Counted from the stretch's first letter, positions 4,591 through 51,223 are shown. The stretch is DNA of 64,000 nt from a virus (IMGVR_UViG_2703718772_000011); one strand, 5' to 3'. The notes: a model not told the origin generated them from the letters alone. Program-made: numbers and translations.

Positions 4591-5235
4591 CTAATGAACG
4601 GTCACTCGGCCACAGAACCGGTTTTCTATCTTTTCTACAGCGTTATCTAGCATTCTCATCACTGATCTGGCTCTTGCTTCAACCGTGCGATATCGGTTGG
4701 AAACGACGAAGGTTTGCAGATCTCCCCTTTGCGGATGCAGGTGAATTTTTGTCAGTTCCCCGCACATCAACGCATCAATACGAGCGACATACAGACGGTC
4801 TAATGATGCTCGTTGTGATCGCAAGTAATCTCGCTCTGAGAGAGCGACTCCCGGGCGTAAGCCAGCAATGGCGTTAAAGTTTGAAATAGCAGTTTTGTGG
4901 CAAAACTTTTCGATATCGAGGGCTAACTCAATACACCGATCTTCATTTGTATGGCCGACCAAATCCAACGTGTAGGCCATAACATCAGCAGGTGTGCGAT
5001 CGATAACAAAGCCTTCAACACCACGCGTAAGTAGCTCTATATGCTTTGCTATTTCCATTTGAATCTGAAGCCGCTCATATAGAGGCATAGAATCACCTAC
5101 TCGAACACCGAGGCGGCTCATCAAACTTCCGACACCAGCATCCACGTAAGGGATTCCGTAATGTTTGTCGATATATTTAGCCAGGGTTGTTTTCCCACTG
5201 CCCTGAGCACCAGTGATCCCAATCCGGTAATCCAT
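4591..5235 (-). CDS. P-loop nucleotide/nucleoside kinase-like protein (putative dNMP kinase)
   Basis: N-terminal Walker A GITGAQGSGKTT; sits among dNTP-synthesis genes. Confidence 0.55.
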   Translation of the reverse strand: MDYRIGITGAQGSGKTTLAKYIDKHYGIPYVDAGVGSLMSRLGVRVGDSMPLYERLQIQMEIAKHIELLTRGVEGFVIDRTPADVMAYTLDLVGHTNEDRCIELALDIEKFCHKTAISNFNAIAGLRPGVALSERDYLRSQRASLDRLYVARIDALMCGELTKIHLHPQRGDLQTFVVSNRYRTVEARARSVMRMLDNAVEKIENRFCGRVTVH

Positions 5236-5711
5236 TACGACCTTCTGTATACGATCTGCGAAAAGCCAGGCTCTTCCTCGCTGGCTCGTTGGGTATAAGC
5301 TGTTTCAACAGGCACAAAGCCTAAATTACGCATCATGCTTGCCGGGAAGAATGCATCGGCGTTTGGCACATCAACGCCGATGTGGGAGAGCCAAATCTCT
5401 TCAACATGCGGCATGAATAGCGAGTAAATTTGTTCCCCGCCAATCACCCACACAGGCTCTGGTAATCGCAACACATCATCCACACCAGCAGGATAGAATC
5501 CATTTGGTACAAAGCCATGAGAGCGCGTCAAAACGAGGTTATGACGCTCTGGAAGAGGGCGTTTGAGACTTTCCATCGTTTTACGCCCCATAACGACAGT
5601 GGCGTTTTTGGTGAGTCTCTTAAATAGCTTCAGATCGGTAGAACAACGCCAGGGCAGTTCGTTCGCTATGCCGATCTCATAGTTACGGCCAACAGCAGCT
5701 ATCATCTTCAT
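5235..5711 (-). CDS. folA: dihydrofolate reductase
   Basis: Collinear with E. coli FolA (IAAVGRNYEIG..LPW, VVMGRKT.ES, VIGGEQIY). Confidence 0.85.
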   Translation of the reverse strand: MKMIAAVGRNYEIGIANELPWRCSTDLKLFKRLTKNATVVMGRKTMESLKRPLPERHNLVLTRSHGFVPNGFYPAGVDDVLRLPEPVWVIGGEQIYSLFMPHVEEIWLSHIGVDVPNADAFFPASMMRNLGFVPVETAYTQRASEEEPGFSQIVYRRS

Positions 5712-6121
5712 TTGCTCACCTCATAGATGACCGGTCTATGATGAGAGTCAGCTAAAGCGGCACGGAGTCGAGGATCGTGCACCAGCGCAGCGATAAGCAG
5801 ATCGCCTTTATGCTCCGCTAATGTGCGCTTAATATGCTTCTCATAACTGGTGCCATTCGGTACGAGATGAAGCCAGTCATAATCAACGCCAAAATCTTTC
5901 AGCCATCGTTTAGTTGGCGCTTCAAGAGTTTCAGAGCGGCTACTGATAAGCACCACTTCAGCCCCTGAGCGAGCAAAACCACGCAACATACGGCTGGTGG
6001 GGAAAATGAGTTCATCACCGGCAATGAGCTGGCCTGCATCCGCGTCAGATACTGATTTACGATGGCTGGCATTTGCCAGCACACCTTCAATTTCGCATAA
6101 GACATACATACCTCTTGCCAT
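5708..6121 (-). CDS. hypothetical protein (possible HAD-like phosphatase)
   Basis: ORF between thyA and folA; start placed at the Met (MARGMYVLCEIEGVL) immediately after the thyA stop; motif only loosely HAD-like. Confidence 0.45.
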   Translation of the reverse strand: MARGMYVLCEIEGVLANASHRKSVSDADAGQLIAGDELIFPTSRMLRGFARSGAEVVLISSRSETLEAPTKRWLKDFGVDYDWLHLVPNGTSYEKHIKRTLAEHKGDLLIAALVHDPRLRAALADSHHRPVIYEVSK

Positions 6122-6122
6122 A

Positions 6123-7253
6123 TCACACCGCCACTGGAACCTTGATCCACGATAGAGGGTCATAGCCAAGAATTAAAACCTCGTCCCATTTGAAATCATC
6201 CAACTCTGACCATTCATGAGGGAAAATAACGACCGGATCTGAATGCTCTGGAGCCTGTCGTTTCATTAGCTCACACACACCTTCCATGTGGTTGTTGTAC
6301 AAATGCACGTCAAAGCCAAAATGCACAAATGCACCGGCCATGTGACCCGTAATCTTCGCGAGAAAATGAGTGAGAATGCCATAGCCAGCAATATTGAATG
6401 GCATACCAACAAAAGTGTCTACGCTACGCTGTACGAGGCAGGAGTTGAGGATGCGTTTGGGGATTCCAAGTTCATCCAGTTCAGCTTCAGTAACACTGCC
6501 GTCCATCTCCAGATCGTATAGCATCTTGGTGTAGATAGACTCGTAACCGAGGCGACTGTGTTGAAGACCAATGTCAGTTGCCATCGTTAAACGGGTTTCA
6601 AAATCCAGCTCACGACTCCACAAAGAGAAGACAAAGTGGCAAGGTGGCAGTTTCATATCCTCAAGCTCGCCTACGTTCCATGCGTTAAGCATGATGCGAC
6701 GATCGGTAGGGTTCGTGCGCAGTGTATCGACAATACGCTGTAGCTGATCGATTTCACGGGACAGCACTACGCGATCTTCACTGATACCCAGGTATCCCTC
6801 GACTTTGTACCCGCGTTCACGGAAAGTAGCGATCTTGCTCAGATATTCACTATGGCTCACGATGCGGGTATCTTCCCATCGACGCCACTGCTTACCGTAA
6901 ACCGGCCCCAAATCGCCATTCTCATCGGCCCATGCATCCCAAATCTTAACGCCGTTATCCTTGAGAAATTGGATGTTGCCCGTGCCTTTCAGATACCACT
7001 CAAGTTCGACAAGCAGTGGCTTAAGATTTACCGCCTTTCCAGAAATAAGCGGCACAGTCCCACCAGTAAGCATGTAGTAAGAGGGAACGTAGCAGGTGCT
7101 TAAAGTACCAGTGCCTGTGCGATCATCAGCCTGCACGCCGCTTTTAAGCACCGTCTCAATAACTTTTGCATACGATGCGTTTGTTACCTGACCGTTCGTA
7201 TGCTCACGATTCAAAAGGAGTGACACAAAAACCTCACAAAGATAAGTAACCAC
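6123..7253 (-). CDS. thyA: thymidylate synthase (ThyA family) with internal insertion
   Basis: DRTGTGT, WADENGDLGPVYGKQWR, LPPCH, MPFNIA motifs. About 45 extra residues between the PPCH and PFNIA motifs relative to E. coli ThyA. ORF begins with GTG; true start uncertain. Confidence 0.9.
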   Translation of the reverse strand: MVTYLCEVFVSLLLNREHTNGQVTNASYAKVIETVLKSGVQADDRTGTGTLSTCYVPSYYMLTGGTVPLISGKAVNLKPLLVELEWYLKGTGNIQFLKDNGVKIWDAWADENGDLGPVYGKQWRRWEDTRIVSHSEYLSKIATFRERGYKVEGYLGISEDRVVLSREIDQLQRIVDTLRTNPTDRRIMLNAWNVGELEDMKLPPCHFVFSLWSRELDFETRLTMATDIGLQHSRLGYESIYTKMLYDLEMDGSVTEAELDELGIPKRILNSCLVQRSVDTFVGMPFNIAGYGILTHFLAKITGHMAGAFVHFGFDVHLYNNHMEGVCELMKRQAPEHSDPVVIFPHEWSELDDFKWDEVLILGYDPLSWIKVPVAV

Positions 7254-45850: not shown

Positions 45851-47191
45851 TTAGGTAACGTCTAAGATTCGCTCAATGAAGCGCATTTGTTCGAGGTTTT
45901 GTTTAACACGAATGCTGATCCCTCCCTGCTGGTTACGTGAACCAGCAAAGTAGAGACGAGCCTCTCCTTTCGCTTCTTCTTCTTCGGTTTTGTTGATCGT
46001 TATTACCAGGTCAGCAATACGTACTTTTTCGATGTTGTCGGCAGCGTGCATCATTGTGGCAACTTCTGACGCGCCACCTTCACGGTTTGTCTGCGATGCC
46101 GTGATCCCAGCAACGTTATGCTTGTCATAAAGAGCACGTAAATCGGTGTAGATACTACGAATGTTGGCGCGATCATCACGAAGGTCATAACTGGCACGCA
46201 TCAAATCTGCGTAGTCGACAACAACCATGTCAGGCACCATGCCGTTGGCTTTCATGCTGTTAAGCATACGGTCCAGATCTGCCGGTGACATACTTCCTGA
46301 CGGACGCTCAACCACCCACAAACTACCAATCCCCTTCGTGGCTCCCAACTCTGCCAACTTACGATGAACCTCATCGCGCCGTTCCACCAGCTTGGACATT
46401 TCTGTCTCCGACAATCTTGCATCAAAACGGTCGGATAAAATGGTGGTGTGAACCTCCAGCGAGAGATACAGAACATTGTAGCCAGCAAGCGTTGCGTTTA
46501 TGGAAAACTCACCCATTGCGGTCGATTTACCGGATTTAGCGAACCCCATGAAGAGCACCATTTCGCGCTTTGCCCAGCCTTTTTGGTACAGCAACCTATC
46601 GAGAAGAGGGAGTCCAGTTGTAATACTGTTTGGTACATACTCCTCTGAAGCCTCATATTCACGCGCTTTCAATCGCTCACTTGCGGAGGTGTAGTAGTCA
46701 TAGATTCCGGTCGCTTCGTTCGATCCAATCTGCTGAACCTTGGCCATGATTGCCATCGCCCCCTGAAAGTCGCCCTTCTCTTTCAGTTCAGCAGCCTTAA
46801 TCAGAGCATCATCAAACGCTACGCTTTTTGCGAAGGTTGATACCTGGTCAACCATGTACGAGGTATCGGACAATTTTTCTGCAAGAATGCGCTTAAACGC
46901 AGCAACAACATCGGCGAATAGTTCCTCACGGATAGTCTTATCGCGTTTCGCACGCTTAAGCATATCCAGAATCGCAGATGAAGAGGGCGCGCTCTTGTAC
47001 ATACGGTAATAGCCCGAAACCATATTAACCAATATGGCATTGGCCGCATTGGCAAATTGGCTAGGTACAACCAGATCTCCAGCACGAGTAAGAAACTCGT
47101 GATCACGACAAAAATAGGCCGTCAATCTGTTCTGAAAATCTTCATCAAACTCTTCGGACAGCCCGCGTCCTGTATGGCAAAGTTCGGTCAT
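45851..47191 (-). CDS. replicative DNA helicase (DnaB family)
   Basis: GLPLLDRLL, Walker A GFAKSGKST, DYADLM, ASQTNRE blocks. Confidence 0.8.
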   Translation of the reverse strand: MTELCHTGRGLSEEFDEDFQNRLTAYFCRDHEFLTRAGDLVVPSQFANAANAILVNMVSGYYRMYKSAPSSSAILDMLKRAKRDKTIREELFADVVAAFKRILAEKLSDTSYMVDQVSTFAKSVAFDDALIKAAELKEKGDFQGAMAIMAKVQQIGSNEATGIYDYYTSASERLKAREYEASEEYVPNSITTGLPLLDRLLYQKGWAKREMVLFMGFAKSGKSTAMGEFSINATLAGYNVLYLSLEVHTTILSDRFDARLSETEMSKLVERRDEVHRKLAELGATKGIGSLWVVERPSGSMSPADLDRMLNSMKANGMVPDMVVVDYADLMRASYDLRDDRANIRSIYTDLRALYDKHNVAGITASQTNREGGASEVATMMHAADNIEKVRIADLVITINKTEEEEAKGEARLYFAGSRNQQGGISIRVKQNLEQMRFIERILDVT

Positions 47192-47234: not shown

Positions 47235-47984
47235 TTAATTAGATAGGGGATCAATAAACCGCCGTGCTTCTTCCAGTTCTTCTGGAAAGTGGGCGGAAAT
47301 AAGGCGCTCTGGAACGATTTCCATTAGCCAGATAGCGGAGAAAATTGTGCGTATGCGCTTGCTGCGAGGGATGGTGCGCAAACGCTCCAGAATCCACTCA
47401 AAATAGCTTTCCTGAATCGGGTTGAACTGCATGTCTCCCATATGCTTAAAGCTAACAAGAGAGTCATCCAGACGGGTTGTTGCGCGTCTGGCTAATTTCT
47501 CTTCAAATATCTCAATCAGTTCTGGCTGCCACAAATGCTGTGGGCGCGGCAGCTTGTCCCACAGCCGTCGTGCAGCTGCGGAAAGAACGGTGGAGATAAA
47601 GTAGTCGTATGAGCAGCAATAGCGATCCGCAAACTGGCGTGCTTTCCATAGCGACGTTTTATTGGCAGTCGACAACTCCTGATAAGGCAGACGTTTTAAC
47701 CCGGTGGTGAACGGAGCTGTTTCAAAGTGTTCGCGACCGTGCGTCAGCATGATATTTGAGTACTGACGTTTGTATGCCTCCGTAAAAAGACAGGTGGCCA
47801 TGAGAGGATGCATGTCGCGGTAATCAAACCACTTCGTCTCGAAGAGTTCAGCCTCGTCTTTACAGCGCGACAAACCAATGTTTTCAGCGACCCACTTGTC
47901 CATAACAGCGGTATTCCACTCTGTCATGAAGTCGTACTGGTCGTTGTCGATGGTATCGAAAAAGATTTGGCTCATGTGGCTCAC
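47235..47984 (-). CDS. hypothetical protein (249 aa)
   Basis: ORF upstream of the helicase gene. Confidence 0.5.
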   Translation of the reverse strand: MSHMSQIFFDTIDNDQYDFMTEWNTAVMDKWVAENIGLSRCKDEAELFETKWFDYRDMHPLMATCLFTEAYKRQYSNIMLTHGREHFETAPFTTGLKRLPYQELSTANKTSLWKARQFADRYCCSYDYFISTVLSAAARRLWDKLPRPQHLWQPELIEIFEEKLARRATTRLDDSLVSFKHMGDMQFNPIQESYFEWILERLRTIPRSKRIRTIFSAIWLMEIVPERLISAHFPEELEEARRFIDPLSN

Positions 47985-48092
47985 CTGGTAGGTAGTTACT
48001 TACTTATCACAATGAGCGGATGATAGCGACTGGTGGCAGTTTTTGGAAGTGGAAACGGAAGGGAGTTGTTCTGGTGGTGTCTTTTTAAAAGA

Positions 48093-48147
48093 CCTGCTTC
48101 TGTATATATTTAATAAGTTACTTATTATTTATATATACAGAAGCAGG
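48093..48147. repeat. 17-bp perfect inverted repeat (cctgcttctgtatatat / atatatacagaagcagg) with 21-nt AT-rich loop, copy 2 of 2
   Basis: Arms match the element at 1716..1776; loop contains AATAAGTTACTTATT. Confidence 0.8.
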
Positions 48148-48258
48148 CATAACTTGTCGTCTTAGACGCCCAGAAGCTCTACACTTTGAGCCTGTTAAAT
48201 TGATTAAAAACTTATGTGTAAAATAGAACGCATTAGTCAGTAGCTAAGAGATGCAATA

Positions 48259-49026
48259 ATGGACGATTTATCGGTATACGCGAGATCATTGGATAAGGCT
48301 AAATACTATGTTTACTGTCTCTATGATACAGAAGACAAGATGAAAAGACCGTTTTACATAGGAAAAGGCAAATCGACTCGTTGTCTCGATCACATCAAGT
48401 ATCCCGATGACTCTCCCAAATCCATGCGGATCAAAGAACTTTTGGCTAATAAAAAATTAGGCATAGATATACTTCGTCATGGTATGGATGAAACCACAGC
48501 CAAACTTGTTGAGGCGACATGCATCGACCTTATGGGGGTCGGAGAGCTTACGAATAAGGTACGAGGAAGTGGTTCCATGATGGGCAGAATATCACTGGAC
48601 GCCTACCATCACTTAGTGCTGCAAGAGGAAACTGAAATTGCTCCTGAGCACGCCGGTCTTGCCTTCCTGCTAAACAGCACCTACAAGTCAGGAATGTCCG
48701 CTCTGGCATTATATGAAGCTACGCGTGGCGTATGGGCAAAGGTTCCAAGAGACGAGAATCTCAAATATGCCTACGCTACATATGGTGGGCTGATAATGGA
48801 AGTTTATCAGATTGAATGCTGGGTCAAAGCCGGTTCTCAGCAGTACTTTACAAGGGATATAGCTCTTGGCCCCGACACAAAACGTTATGAATTTGTTGGC
48901 AGAATAGCCGATGAGCATATTAGAAAACTGTATGTAGGCAAATTAATCAAGAAGCCACCAAGCTACGGTAGCCCTTTTGTGAAGGTTGGGGTGGTTAGGA
49001 CTGAACATAGTGTTAGCGCGGCATAA
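48259..49026 (+). CDS. GIY-YIG nuclease domain protein
   Basis: N-terminal YYVYCLYDTEDKMKRPFYIGKGKSTRCLDH fits the GIY-(x10-11)-YIG...R...H pattern. Confidence 0.6.
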   Translation: MDDLSVYARSLDKAKYYVYCLYDTEDKMKRPFYIGKGKSTRCLDHIKYPDDSPKSMRIKELLANKKLGIDILRHGMDETTAKLVEATCIDLMGVGELTNKVRGSGSMMGRISLDAYHHLVLQEETEIAPEHAGLAFLLNSTYKSGMSALALYEATRGVWAKVPRDENLKYAYATYGGLIMEVYQIECWVKAGSQQYFTRDIALGPDTKRYEFVGRIADEHIRKLYVGKLIKKPPSYGSPFVKVGVVRTEHSVSAA

Positions 49027-49078
49027 AGCTGACACTGTAGTTATGCATTGGCGCAATGTACGCGCCAATGCATGATTT

Positions 49079-49438
49079 TTAACCTTTCTTCATCAACTCT
49101 CGTTTGATTTCATCGGTACGCATCGTGACATCGGCAGCGGTGATCGCCTCATTCAATTTCACGATGTCCTCGATTTCCTGCGGTGACTTCTCTGCCAGAT
49201 GGAAAATGGCTGCTCGAATCACGTCAGAACGAGTGAACTTCTCGAAGCGAGGGATGAACTTCATCATCTCCAGCAGTTCGAAGTATTCGTCCTCCAGTGA
49301 CATTGTGCGGCTTTTAATTTTCTCTTTGCCACGAGTCGGGCGTCCCTGTGGTCTGACTGGTTGGCGCAAAGGAGTTGTGTTCTTAGCCGGTGCATCAGGC
49401 TCTTTGCGCTTTGCTAGGTCACCCATTTTCATGGACAT
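49079..49438 (-). CDS. putative partition adaptor / centromere-binding protein (ParG/ParB-like)
   Basis: Small basic protein immediately downstream of parA; assignment by context only. Confidence 0.4.
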   Translation of the reverse strand: MSMKMGDLAKRKEPDAPAKNTTPLRQPVRPQGRPTRGKEKIKSRTMSLEDEYFELLEMMKFIPRFEKFTRSDVIRAAIFHLAEKSPQEIEDIVKLNEAITAADVTMRTDEIKRELMKKG

Positions 49439-50106
49439 TATTCTTCTTCCTCCAGACTCAACAGATAATCTACAAATTCTTCAAACTCGGCTTCCGCCTT
49501 CTTGTCGCGTTCGCTACCGGTCATTTCAAAGATAGAACGACCTGACTCTTCCGCATCATCGTAGACGTTGCGGTTATATAGATTGACTGGCGCAGACTCG
49601 ATGCCGAACGTCTCGACAATCTCTTTAGCCGCCAGAATGCGAGACACTTGTGATGGCAAAGCCGGGCACTGGTTCATGACCGCGCGGACCTTCACTTTAT
49701 CGTTTACATTGCGAACATTGTCGATAATAGGATCGATGTCACGTAAAGATTTCAAATCACGACGCTTAGGACGCAGCGGGATAATGATAACGTCAGCCAT
49801 CAGCATCGCTTGTCGCTGAATTTCGGAGTCGAAGCCACCAGCATCTACCACTACAAACTCAGCTCTACCCTGAAGCGATTTTAGGTGCTTAATGATGTCA
49901 TCCTGAACGTATGCAAAAGGAATCAGCTCAAGGTCTTCGTTCTGTCGACGGTCTTCACACCAGCTCGTTGTCGTGCGCTGAATATCTATATCGGTAATAT
50001 AAACCTTCTTCTTCTTTTTGACTTTCAGGCAAACGGCAATTTGCTGGGCAACGGTGGATTTGCCAGGCCCGCCCTTTGTGCCGCCAACCACAAAGATCTT
50101 GGTCAT
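49438..50106 (-). CDS. parA: ParA/ParF-type partition ATPase
   Basis: Deviant Walker A GGTKGGPGKST; 222 aa small ParA. Confidence 0.85.
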   Translation of the reverse strand: MTKIFVVGGTKGGPGKSTVAQQIAVCLKVKKKKKVYITDIDIQRTTTSWCEDRRQNEDLELIPFAYVQDDIIKHLKSLQGRAEFVVVDAGGFDSEIQRQAMLMADVIIIPLRPKRRDLKSLRDIDPIIDNVRNVNDKVKVRAVMNQCPALPSQVSRILAAKEIVETFGIESAPVNLYNRNVYDDAEESGRSIFEMTGSERDKKAEAEFEEFVDYLLSLEEEE

Positions 50107-50424
50107 TGGAGAGTTCCCTTTGCGTATATAATTATCGTCTGAAACAACTTGTTTTCTTATATGTGATATAGCCTAAATGCCTACGGCTGCGGTGTAAAGG
50201 TTAAATGGTAGGTTGTGATTAACAATTGGCAATCATAGCTTGTATTTGTCTGTTGAAAAAAGTAACAATGACCTCTATATTACAAGTACGGTGATATGCC
50301 GTACACAATTTGATAATGCACACGTAATGGGCTATAGCCTTTTAAAGTAATTTTTGAGTCGAAAACTCAGTTTGAACAGAGGAGATTGATGGCCTTCCTT
50401 CATCACGGCCATCAGGAGGAATAC

Positions 50425-50694
50425 ATGTCAGCACTAAAAAAGCAGCGCATCGATTTGAGATTAACCGATGACGATAAAAGCATCATCGAGGAAGCTGCCG
50501 CAATGTCTAACCAGAGCATTACTCAGTTTATGGTTAGCAGTGCATCTGAACGTGCCGTGAAAGTTATAGAGCAACACCGTAGACTAGTTCTGAATGAAGA
50601 ATCCTGGAATCTGGTTATGGACGCTATAAGCAATCCTCCGGCACCGAACGACAAGCTGAAACGAGCTGCTGATCGTCTGAAAAGCATGGAGTAG
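50425..50694 (+). CDS. DUF1778-type antitoxin (TacA/AtaR-like)
   Basis: Start at Met after AGGAGG RBS; RLTDDDKSIIEEAAAMSNQSITQFMVSSA...EQHRRLVL typical of antitoxins paired with GNAT toxins. Confidence 0.75.
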   Translation: MSALKKQRIDLRLTDDDKSIIEEAAAMSNQSITQFMVSSASERAVKVIEQHRRLVLNEESWNLVMDAISNPPAPNDKLKRAADRLKSME

Positions 50695-50701
50695 TTTACT
50701 C

Positions 50702-51223
50702 GTGAGCAATACAACGATAGAGATTTTCTCTGGAGAGAAAGATTATGATCTAAACGGTTTTGATTGCGGCGAAGAGTCACTAAACGCCTTTTTAGCCAAC
50801 CACTTAAAAAGGCAGCATGAGGGAAAAATTCTTCGTGCTTATGTGCTTTGCACTCAAGAAGAAAGGCCAAAAGTGTTAGGATATTACACTTTGTCAGGTA
50901 GTTGTTTTGAAAAGGAGTCCTTACCTTCAAGAAGCAAACAAAAGAAGGTTCCTTATCGGAATGTTCCAAGTGTTACTTTGGGTAGGCTGGCTTTGGACAA
51001 GTCCCTTCAAGGTCAAGGATTTGGCTCAATGCTTGTAACACATGCAATGCGCGTTGTGTACAATGCATCTCTTGCTGTAGGCATTCATGGACTTTTCGTT
51101 GAGGCGTTAAATGACAAAGCCAAGGCGTTTTATAAAAGTTTAGGCTTTATCCAGCTGGTTGGTAACAACGAGCGTTCTTTGTTCTATCCTACAAAATCTA
51201 TCGAAAAATTGTTCGAAGAATAA
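50702..51223 (+). CDS. GNAT-family acetyltransferase toxin (TacT/AtaT-like)
   Basis: GTG start 8 nt after antitoxin stop; FDCG motif and GNAT core (QGQGFGSMLV). Confidence 0.75.
   Translation: MSNTTIEIFSGEKDYDLNGFDCGEESLNAFLANHLKRQHEGKILRAYVLCTQEERPKVLGYYTLSGSCFEKESLPSRSKQKKVPYRNVPSVTLGRLALDKSLQGQGFGSMLVTHAMRVVYNASLAVGIHGLFVEALNDKAKAFYKSLGFIQLVGNNERSLFYPTKSIEKLFEE

What the first reader, a model, noticed from the sequence alone, without database searches (positions are those of the whole stretch)
48259..49026. Opposite-strand GIY-YIG nuclease gene with its own promoter-like region
A 255-aa protein with an N-terminal GIY-YIG module and an uncharacterised C-terminal domain sits alone on the plus strand between the helicase block and the partition genes, preceded by the long palindrome. 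It could be a free-standing homing endonuclease or a nuclease with a defence or anti-defence role.
Basis: partly seen in the sequence, partly recalled or inferred. Interest (0 to 1): 0.5.

Follow-up and report, generated by a model that had tools for sequence, protein, structure and literature searches.

The report
Phage-plasmid-borne modified-DNA restriction nuclease (PD-T4-3/CMoRE)
The gene is real and is a divergent member of a recently characterised single-gene antiphage system (PD-T4-3/CMoRE) that cuts phage DNA carrying modified cytosines; it sits in a swappable defence-gene slot of an SSU5-like E. coli phage-plasmid, so it is an ordinary, already recognisable defence cargo rather than a homing endonuclease.

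Summary

[quoted passage not shown] Here the GIYxY-YIG tyrosines (Y17, Y19, Y33), R41, E85 and N99 are intact.

Identity to the characterised enzymes is only 32-33%. The acidic autoinhibitory lid loop is 5 residues shorter and not acidic.

The window is an SSU5-like phage-plasmid. The gene lies in a 0.9-kb cassette (48148-49080) with its own terminator. The slot starts just after a conserved backbone palindrome and ends at the parB-like stop. Relatives carry PD-T7-5, DUF2971 or KAP-NTPase genes there instead.

About 40% of E. coli genomes carrying this backbone have the gene, always on plasmids. A preprint already lists PD-T4-3 in these phage-plasmids.

Verdict: new member of a known kind, defence reading supported, homing reading not, low interest. 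Activity and specificity are inferred, not shown.

The parts
48259..49026 (+). [quoted passage not shown]
48259..48573 (+). [quoted passage not shown] Contains the GIYxY-YIG motif (Y17, Y19, Y33), R41, H45, E85 and N99, and a short non-acidic alpha2-alpha3 loop (YPDDS, residues 48-52).
48580..49023 (+). C-terminal domain, about residues 108-255, homologous to the CMoRE modification-sensing domain. The fold looks PUA-like (ASCH/EVE/YTH).
48148..48258 (+). Cassette-specific 5' region. It holds a weak promoter candidate (TTAAAT at 48195-48200, 18-nt spacer, TAAAAT at 48219-48224) and a weak Shine-Dalgarno-like AAGAGA upstream of the ATG.
   Evidence: Backbone homology with Cyrano, SSU5, p899037_3, pJSWP021_2 and pHXH-2 ends at 48147. 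The strict consensus scan found no promoter. The lenient scan gave an 8/12 match. That this is the promoter is inference.
49039..49080 (+). Intrinsic-terminator-like hairpin for the + strand gene. The 12-bp perfect GC-rich core is at 49043-49073 and the T-run at 49076-49080. It marks the right end of the cassette.
   Evidence: Inverted repeat I7. RNA fold -26.6 kcal/mol, z -4.55, followed by UUUUU. Backbone homology resumes at 49081.
48093..48147 (.). 55-bp near-perfect palindrome. It is a conserved backbone element that marks the left edge of the variable slot and is not part of the nuclease cassette.
   Evidence: Repeats I1/I2. Fold z -8.2. Conserved in SSU5, Cyrano and four other relatives that carry different cargo. 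On the minus strand it is followed by TCTTTTAAAAAG, so it may terminate the par/slot transcript; that is inference.
49079..50106 (-). Right-hand backbone flank: parB-like 119-aa gene (49079..49438) and ParA/MipZ-type ATPase (49438..50106). Context only.
   Evidence: ORFs. ParA-type Pfam hits. Conserved at 80-99% nucleotide identity across 737 plasmid records.
47235..47984 (-). Left-hand backbone flank: 249-aa replication-module gene of unknown family, next to the DnaB-like helicase and primase. Context only.
   Evidence: ORF. No Pfam hit. Conserved in relatives. Present in 259 of 5426 complete E. coli genomes, always on plasmids.

Best explanation
[quoted passage not shown] It is carried as a self-contained single-gene defence cassette in a cargo hotspot of an SSU5-like E. 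coli phage-plasmid.

Proposed mechanism, by homology to CMoRE:
1. The C-terminal domain recognises hypermodified bases in incoming DNA, most probably 5-hydroxymethyl- or glucosyl-hydroxymethyl-cytosine of T-even phages.
2. The N-terminal GIY-YIG domain (Y17/Y19/Y33, R41, E85, N99; Mg2+/Mn2+) cuts that DNA.
3. Unmodified DNA of the host and of the phage-plasmid is spared.
4. The outcome is direct immunity, not abortive infection. It protects the lysogen, and therefore the resident phage-plasmid, from superinfecting lytic phages.

Shown here: homology over both domains, intact catalytic residues, fold, cassette boundaries, slot variability and distribution.

Inferred: enzymatic activity, the modification recognised, expression from its own weak promoter, and the benefit to the phage-plasmid.
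For: Family assignment:
- PADLOC PD-T4-3 E 1.3e-23, covering 228 of 256 model positions.
- The only PDB sequence matches are the four CMoRE entries, E 2e-15, query 12-230 against chain 17-243.

Catalytic and motif residues:
- Y17, Y19, Y33, G35, G37, R41, H45, E85 and N99 are invariant across 29 subfamily members plus two CMoRE sequences.

Published function of the family:
- CMoRE degrades 5hmC/5ghmC DNA, not C or 5mC DNA, and gives about 5 logs of protection against T2/T4/T6 without abortive infection (PMC12923530).
- PD-T4-3Capno degrades T4 DNA but not T4-GT7 DNA, and also Mu DNA (PMC12366544).
- PD-T4-3 is active in its native E. coli host (10.1101/2024.12.20.629700).

Defence-hotspot context:
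- Backbone homology stops at 48147 and resumes at 49081.
- Relatives carry other cargo in the same slot: PD-T7-5 (E 1.8e-139), DUF2971/PDC-S31, KAP NTPase/PDC-S49, or a 357-aa unknown.
- The gene is in 107 of 5426 complete E. coli genomes, all on plasmids. The backbone flank is in 259 genomes.
- Cassette GC is 43.5% against 48-49% in the flanking rep and par genes.
- The cassette has its own terminator.
- Chromosomal homologues are solo genes with unrelated neighbours, which fits a single-gene system.
- A preprint lists PD-T4-3 among DefenseFinder hits in E. coli/Shigella SSU5 clade J phage-plasmids (10.1101/2025.09.12.675607).
Against: - Identity to the characterised enzymes is only 32-33% overall and 26-27% in the sensor domain. 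Substrate specificity cannot be transferred with confidence.
- The acidic autoinhibitory lid is not present in that form. In CMoRE it has four consecutive D/E residues, and neutralising them causes cleavage of unmodified DNA and toxicity. Here the loop is 5 residues shorter, has only DD and has net charge +1. How self-DNA is spared is unexplained.
- No consensus promoter was found, so expression in the plasmid state is unproven.
- The global TM-score to the crystal structures is low (0.37), because the relative orientation of the two domains differs.
- Nothing in my literature searches shows that any protein of this particular subfamily has been tested.
Confidence: 0.85

Rival explanations
1. 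It is the same family and architecture, but a functionally shifted subfamily: a lid-less CMoRE relative. Its sensor domain would recognise a different DNA modification, such as other hypermodified pyrimidines, arabinosyl-hmC or Mu-type modified adenine. Alternatively its self/non-self control would work differently from the acidic-lid mechanism.
For: - The sensor domain is only 26-27% identical to CMoRE.
- The alpha2-alpha3 loop is 5 residues shorter and is neutral or basic in nearly all 29 subfamily members examined.
- The subfamily is coherent: members share at least 50% identity, are 245-255 aa long and are widespread in Gammaproteobacteria.
- Family members are already known to differ in range. 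PD-T4-3Capno also cuts Mu DNA (PMC12366544), and CMoRE acts only weakly on Bas46/47 (PMC12923530).
Against: - No direct evidence points to a different substrate.
- The published 5hmC contact is made by a main-chain oxygen, so sequence divergence need not change specificity (PMC12923530).
- PMC12923530 states that 'most', not all, family members have the acidic loop. Lid-less members therefore already sit within the family as described.
Confidence: 0.3
2. It is a free-standing GIY-YIG homing endonuclease (Seg/I-TevI-like). It would cut a specific site in relatives that lack it and spread by recombinational repair.
For: - GIY-YIG catalytic domain.
- Patchy presence among close relatives at one fixed locus.
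- Distant homologues in jumbo phages are annotated 'homing nuclease' by their depositors.
Against: - The C-terminal half is homologous to the CMoRE modification sensor and has no recognisable sequence-specific DNA-binding module.
- The homing-endonuclease PHROG hit is non-significant, E 0.28.
- Relatives without the gene carry other, unrelated cargo in the slot, not an empty cleavable site.
- Homologues at 53-79% protein identity are solo genes in bacterial chromosomes and non-phage plasmids.
Confidence: 0.03
3. It is a phage-lifecycle or DNA-repair nuclease. Examples would be host-DNA degradation like T4 EndoII, or structure-specific cleavage like LEM-3/Slx1/UvrC. In this reading it serves replication or recombination of the phage-plasmid rather than defence.
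For: - The best Pfam label is 'LEM-3-like GIY-YIG', which is also the RefSeq product name.
- The gene lies between the replication and partition modules.
Against: - These similarities are confined to the roughly 90-residue catalytic core. The full-length match is to CMoRE only.
- The gene is dispensable: about 60% of E. coli genomes with this backbone lack it, and SSU5 itself lacks it.
- It is transcribed opposite to the replication and partition genes, with its own terminator.
Confidence: 0.04

Closest known systems
CMoRE / PD-T4-3 (E. coli APEC O1 and O157:H7 enzymes; PDB 9U7U, 9U7Z, 9U75, 9U8D; Liu et al., Nat Commun 2026, PMC12923530; system first reported from E. coli ECOR68)
   Same: - Single-polypeptide, single-gene system of about 250 aa.
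- N-terminal GIY-YIG domain with the extra tyrosine (GIYxY-YIG), plus catalytic Arg, Glu and Asn.
- Homologous C-terminal sensor domain.
- Top sequence and structure match over both domains.
   Different: - Only 32-33% identity overall (38-39% in the nuclease domain, 26-27% in the sensor domain).
- The alpha2-alpha3 'lid' loop is 5 residues shorter and lacks the DDDE/DDDD run.
- The interface residue L96 is an invariant Cys (C88) in this subfamily.
- It is carried on a phage-plasmid.
- Its activity is untested.
PD-T4-3Capno (Capnocytophaga homologue recovered by metagenomic selection; PMC12366544)
   Same: Same family. It was shown to be a modification-dependent nuclease that needs its GIY-YIG catalytic residues, which illustrates that distant homologues keep the defence function.
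   Different: It is reported as 48% identical to PD-T4-3 and also degrades Mu DNA. Whether the present protein shares that breadth is unknown.
Other type IV enzymes built from a PUA-like reader plus a nuclease (e.g. VcaM4I, PDB 6YEX; archaeal McrB N-terminal YTH-like domains, 6N0S and 6P0G)
   Different: They use a different nuclease (HNH or McrC rather than GIY-YIG). There is no detectable sequence similarity, and the structural similarity is marginal and rests on a predicted model.
Free-standing GIY-YIG homing endonucleases (I-TevI, T4 Seg proteins)
   Different: No linker plus sequence-specific DNA-binding module, a different C-terminal domain, and no empty-site polymorphism.

Membership tests
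PD-T4-3 / CMoRE type IV restriction endonuclease | Significant full-length sequence similarity to the family profile and to the characterised proteins | tested here: met
   PADLOC PD-T4-3 E 1.3e-23, residues 11-231 against profile positions 11-238 of 256. phmmer against the PDB gives E 2e-15 to 9u7u/9u75 over residues 12-230.
PD-T4-3 / CMoRE type IV restriction endonuclease | Two-domain fold: N-terminal GIY-YIG nuclease plus C-terminal modification-sensing domain joined by a flexible linker | tested here: met
   [not shown]
PD-T4-3 / CMoRE type IV restriction endonuclease | 'GIYxY-YIG' motif with a third tyrosine (CMoRE Y17, Y19, Y31) | tested here: met
   Y17-V-Y19 and Y33-I-G are invariant in alignment A1 and align with CMoRE Y17, Y19 and Y31 (numbering offset worked out).
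PD-T4-3 / CMoRE type IV restriction endonuclease | Catalytic Arg and Glu (and Asn) of the GIY-YIG active site | tested here: met
   R41, E85 and N99 are invariant columns shared with CMoRE.
PD-T4-3 / CMoRE type IV restriction endonuclease | Inserted, negatively charged autoinhibitory loop between alpha2 and alpha3, with four consecutive acidic residues. The authors state that 'most' members have it. | tested here: not met
   The H45-I58 segment is 14 residues here (HIKYPDDSPKSMRI; 2 acidic, net +1). In CMoRE it is 19 residues with 5 acidic, a run of 4, and net -3. Of the 29 subfamily members examined, 28 have the 14-residue loop and one (P0113) a 20-residue loop; none has a run of four acidic residues.
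PD-T4-3 / CMoRE type IV restriction endonuclease | Single-gene system without a conserved partner such as a methyltransferase | tested here: met
   The gene stands alone on its strand with its own terminator. Neighbours differ completely in IncF plasmids, Leclercia plasmids and Providencia, Shewanella and other chromosomes.
PD-T4-3 / CMoRE type IV restriction endonuclease | Cleaves 5hmC/5ghmC DNA but not C or 5mC DNA, and protects against T-even phages by direct immunity | not testable with these tools
   Requires plaque assays and nuclease assays. Only homology is available.
PD-T4-3 / CMoRE type IV restriction endonuclease | Tetramer (dimer of dimers) needed for function, with interface residues V92/L96 | tested here: inconclusive
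   V92 aligns with V84 (conserved). L96 aligns with C88, which is invariant in the subfamily. No oligomer model was made.
Free-standing GIY-YIG homing endonuclease | GIY-YIG catalytic domain | tested here: met
   [not shown]
Free-standing GIY-YIG homing endonuclease | C-terminal sequence-specific DNA-binding modules (NUMOD/IENR/HTH/zinc finger) | tested here: not met
   No Pfam family matches the C-terminal 148 aa even at E up to 10. It aligns instead with the CMoRE sensor domain. PHROG 'homing endonuclease' E 0.28.
Free-standing GIY-YIG homing endonuclease | Occupied-versus-empty target-site polymorphism among close relatives | tested here: not met
   All sampled relatives that lack the gene carry other cargo between the same two breakpoints. 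No empty site was seen in the 60-record spread sample.

The most novel reading that the evidence does not exclude
This may be the prototype of a 'lid-less' CMoRE subfamily with two distinctive properties. First, its self/non-self discrimination would not rely on the published acidic autoinhibitory loop, and its modification specificity might differ from 5hmC/5ghmC. Second, its sensor domain, and by homology the CMoRE sensor described as a distinct fold, would be a divergent PUA-like (ASCH/EVE/YTH) modified-base reader. That would link CMoRE evolutionarily to the other reader-plus-nuclease type IV enzymes.
Probability: 0.3. Interest if true: 0.45.

Novelty: new member of a known kind. Interest (0 to 1): 0.25.

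Why it matters
- It converts a 'hypothetical / LEM-3-like GIY-YIG' annotation, carried by about 2% of complete E. coli genomes, into a specific and testable function: restriction of phages with hypermodified DNA.
- It shows that the short interval between the replication and partition modules of SSU5-like phage-plasmids is a defence-cargo hotspot with sharp boundaries. This matters for predicting how these common, clinically associated phage-plasmids alter susceptibility to therapeutic T-even-like phages.
- The lid-less variant is a natural experiment on the proposed autoinhibition mechanism of CMoRE.
- The PUA-like signal in the sensor domain, if confirmed on the crystal coordinates, would revise the 'distinct fold' statement in the literature.
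- None of this is a new kind of system.

Tried and rejected
- NCBIfam gave no hit.
- Pfam on the isolated C-terminal domain, and on the CMoRE C-terminal domain, gave nothing even at E up to 10. The PUA-like idea therefore rests on structure comparison alone.
- The sigma-70 and terminator consensus scan returned 0 sites of each kind. It missed the 3' hairpin that folding shows clearly. It gives no support for a strong promoter.
- I looked for tested PD-T4-3 homologue sequences in the supplements of PMC12366544, but no supplementary text is held. I therefore could not tell whether any tested homologue belongs to this subfamily.
- I could not establish whether the natively active PD-T4-3 of E. 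coli NILS69 is this allele. The paper text gives only the genome accession.
- A literature search for a described SSU5 defence hotspot found no explicit description of this rep-par slot in the 12 listed papers (titles and abstracts only, of 57 that matched).
- Considered and rejected: homing endonuclease, EndoII-like host-DNA nuclease or repair nuclease, and a role for the palindrome as the gene's operator or promoter. The palindrome is conserved backbone, independent of the cargo.

Full report
**1. Observation**

Its start aligns with the first residue of most homologues.

Its immediate neighbours are on the opposite strand:
- To the left are a 249-aa replication-module gene (47235..47984), a DnaB-like helicase (45851..47191) and a primase-like gene.
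- To the right are a 119-aa parB-like gene (49079..49438) and a ParA/MipZ-type ATPase (49438..50106).

Pfam finds a GIY-YIG domain (PF22945, E 5.5e-7, residues 32-104).

The upstream palindrome is real. It spans 48093-48147, with 17-nt perfect outer arms and 16-nt inner arms, and folds with z = -8.2.

The 'own promoter-like region' is the weakest part of the observation. The consensus scan found no sigma-70-like site in 47900-49200. A lenient scan found only TTAAAT-18 nt-TAAAAT, matching 8 of 12 positions, at 48195-48224.

This is a good intrinsic terminator for the + strand gene.

**2. What the window is**

The region is 99.4-99.6% identical to Escherichia phages CMS-2020a and PhiR41_1 and to many 105-120-kb E. 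coli 'plasmids'. It is 80-87% identical in the par genes to Salmonella phage SSU5 and to Klebsiella and Enterobacter relatives. It is therefore an SSU5-like phage-plasmid.

**3. What the protein is**

- The PADLOC profile for the single-gene antiphage system PD-T4-3 matches residues 11-231 (E 1.3e-23).
- Against all PDB sequences, the only hits are 9U7U/9U7Z and 9U75/9U8D (E 2e-15), aligned over residues 12-230. That covers both the nuclease half and the C-terminal half.
- Those entries are the crystal structures of PD-T4-3, renamed CMoRE (PMC12923530).
- An AlphaFold2 model built from 41 homologues (pLDDT 83.6) retrieves the same entries as its top four Foldseek hits (E 3e-12 to 1.5e-10, prob 1.0, about 263 aligned columns).
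- The global TM-score is low (0.37). The model places the two domains differently, and the linker (residues 98-107) has low confidence. The authors likewise describe their linker as flexible and disordered.

- It binds and cleaves 5hmC- and 5ghmC-containing DNA but not C or 5mC DNA.
- It cuts at CN11/N9G around two modified cytosines.
- It protects E. coli about 10^5-fold against T2, T4 and T6.
- It acts by direct immunity rather than abortive infection.

Two further papers bear on the family. A Capnocytophaga homologue degrades T4 but not T4-GT7 DNA, and also Mu DNA (PMC12366544). PD-T4-3 is one of only two systems found active in the native host E. coli NILS69 (10.1101/2024.12.20.629700).

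**4. Membership details**

I aligned 29 subfamily members, including the window protein, with the two CMoRE sequences transcribed. The following columns are invariant:

| Residue here | CMoRE equivalent or role |
|---|---|
| Y17, Y19 | Y17, Y19 of the GIYxY motif |
| Y33-I-G | Y31 of the YIG motif |
| R41 | catalytic Arg |
| H45 | invariant |
| E85 | catalytic Glu |
| N99 | catalytic Asn |

Identity to CMoRE is 32-33% overall. It is 38-39% in the nuclease domain and 26-27% in the sensor domain.

One published hallmark is not met. CMoRE has a 15-residue acidic loop between alpha2 and alpha3 with four consecutive D/E residues. Neutralising them causes cleavage of ordinary DNA and toxicity. In the window protein the corresponding segment is 5 residues shorter (HIKYPDDSPKSMRI, against HMRGEVAAVDDDELLNNKL). 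It contains only two acidic residues and has a net charge of +1. Twenty-eight of the 29 subfamily members examined, the window protein among them, share this 14-residue loop, and none has a run of four acidic residues. The authors say 'most' family members have the acidic loop, so this does not exclude membership. It does mean the autoinhibition mechanism cannot simply be transferred.

The subfamily is coherent and widespread. Members share at least 50% identity, are 245-255 aa long, and 288 homologues score E below 1e-5. They occur in Gammaproteobacteria, including on multi-megabase chromosomal contigs.

**5. Genomic anatomy: a cargo slot**

Pairwise and multiple alignments with PhiR41_1, Cyrano, SSU5 and three E. 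coli phage-plasmids show where backbone similarity begins and ends. It runs through the right arm of the palindrome, stops at 48147, and resumes at 49081, the stop codon of the parB-like gene.

The 0.93-kb interval 48148-49080 is thus a cassette containing three parts:
- a roughly 110-bp private upstream region,
- the ORF,
- the terminator hairpin.

Its GC content is 43.5%, against 48-49% for the flanking rep and par genes.

The same slot holds different cargo in relatives:

| Relative | Cargo in the slot | PADLOC / Pfam match |
|---|---|---|
| Cyrano | DUF2971 protein | PDC-S31, E 3e-41 |
| SSU5 | DUF2971 protein plus two unknowns | PDC-S31 |
| pHXH-2 | PD-T7-5 plus DUF2971 | PD-T7-5, E 1.8e-139 |
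| pJSWP021_2 | KAP-family NTPase | PDC-S49, E 5e-22 |
| p899037_3 | 357-aa unknown on the + strand | none |

The slot therefore behaves as a defence hotspot. The palindrome is a backbone landmark, not the nuclease's regulatory element. On the minus strand the palindrome is followed by TCTTTTAAAAAG. It may therefore terminate the par/slot transcription unit, but that is inference.

**6. Distribution**

- The gene (at least 95% nucleotide identity) is in 107 of 5426 complete E. coli genomes. It is never chromosomal.
- The left backbone flank is in 259 genomes. Roughly 40% of E. coli genomes carrying this backbone have the gene.
- In PLSDB, 135 records encode a protein at least 99% identical.
- A 1.6-kb piece of the phage-plasmid carrying the gene has been captured next to IS3 in IncF conjugative plasmids.
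- A homologue with 76% protein identity sits in unrelated large plasmids of Leclercia, Enterobacter, Citrobacter and Serratia.
- Chromosomal homologues in Providencia, Shewanella and another gammaproteobacterium are solo genes with unrelated neighbours.

This is the pattern of a mobile single-gene defence system.

A 2025 preprint that screened SSU5-group phage-plasmids with DefenseFinder already lists PD-T4-3, along with PD-T7-5, PrrC and RM systems, in E. coli/Shigella clade J (10.1101/2025.09.12.675607).

**7. Mechanism proposed**

- Shown: homology over both domains, intact active site, fold, cassette structure, and hotspot context.
- Inferred: the protein is made in the plasmid-prophage state from a weak private promoter. 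Its C-terminal domain recognises hypermodified bases in incoming DNA, most probably hmC or glucosyl-hmC. The GIY-YIG domain cleaves that DNA. Unmodified host and phage-plasmid DNA are spared. The lysogen, and so the phage-plasmid, is protected from T-even-type lytic phages.
- Uncertain: the exact modification range, and how self-DNA is spared without the acidic lid.

**8. Rivals**

- Homing endonuclease. Only the catalytic core fits. The C-terminal domain, the absence of empty sites and the chromosomal and plasmid homologues argue against it.
- EndoII-, UvrC- or LEM-3-like lifecycle or repair nuclease. Similarity is limited to the roughly 90-residue core. The gene is dispensable and oppositely transcribed.
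- A shifted-specificity, lid-less subfamily. This is a refinement of the main reading rather than an alternative, and it remains open.

**9. An observation beyond the finding**

- ASCH proteins,
- YTH domains,
- EVE/THYN1 bound to 5mC DNA,
- the type IV enzyme VcaM4I,
- archaeal McrB N-terminal domains,
- Lon N-domains.

**10. Verdict**

This is a real gene and a divergent new member of a known, recently characterised defence family. It sits in a defence-cargo slot of a common phage-plasmid. Novelty is modest and interest is low (0.25). The lid-less loop and the possible PUA-like sensor are the only points a specialist might follow up.

Noticed in passing
[not shown]
   Followed up: partly
window 48093-48147: The 55-bp palindrome is conserved backbone in SSU5, Cyrano and other relatives whatever their cargo. 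On the minus strand it is followed by TCTTTTAAAAAG. It could be the intrinsic terminator of the parAB/slot transcript or an origin-type element. It marks the exact left recombination boundary of the cargo slot.
   Followed up: partly
window 50386-51223 (+): A TacA (DUF1778) / GNAT-toxin (TacT/KacT-like) toxin-antitoxin pair sits just beyond parA. The same position holds two unrelated hypothetical genes in PhiR41_1 and SSU5, so this is a second variable cargo slot that brackets the par operon.
   Followed up: partly
phage records ON287375, MK994515, MF285618, ON375847 and others: Jumbo Serratia and Pectobacterium phages of about 255-278 kb encode near-full-length (85-88% of the query) homologues at 25-30% identity. 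Depositors annotate them as GIY-YIG or endonuclease (the 'homing nuclease' labels are on the shorter Klebsiella N1M2 and Pseudomonas OBP matches). This suggests lytic jumbo phages also carry CMoRE-like enzymes.
   Followed up: no
plasmid records NZ_LT882487 and CP044008 (Salmonella, 80-84 kb; H244/H245): A copy at 76% protein identity is split into two tblastn pieces and has no annotated gene in the PLSDB table, whose gene list omits pseudogenes. It is probably a frameshifted pseudogene.
   Followed up: no
L004 (NZ_CP075717 IncF plasmid) 5001-6174; NZ_CP062888; NZ_CP017847 (H85): A roughly 1.6-kb fragment equivalent to window ~47880-49498 (palindrome, nuclease gene and parB-like gene) has been captured next to IS3 in conjugative IncF plasmids. 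In another phage-plasmid an IS100 has inserted into this locus.
   Followed up: partly
window 47235-47984 (-) and 49079-49438 (-): The conserved 249-aa replication-module protein and the 119-aa parB-like protein have no Pfam family at all, although they are core backbone genes of a very common phage-plasmid group.
   Followed up: no
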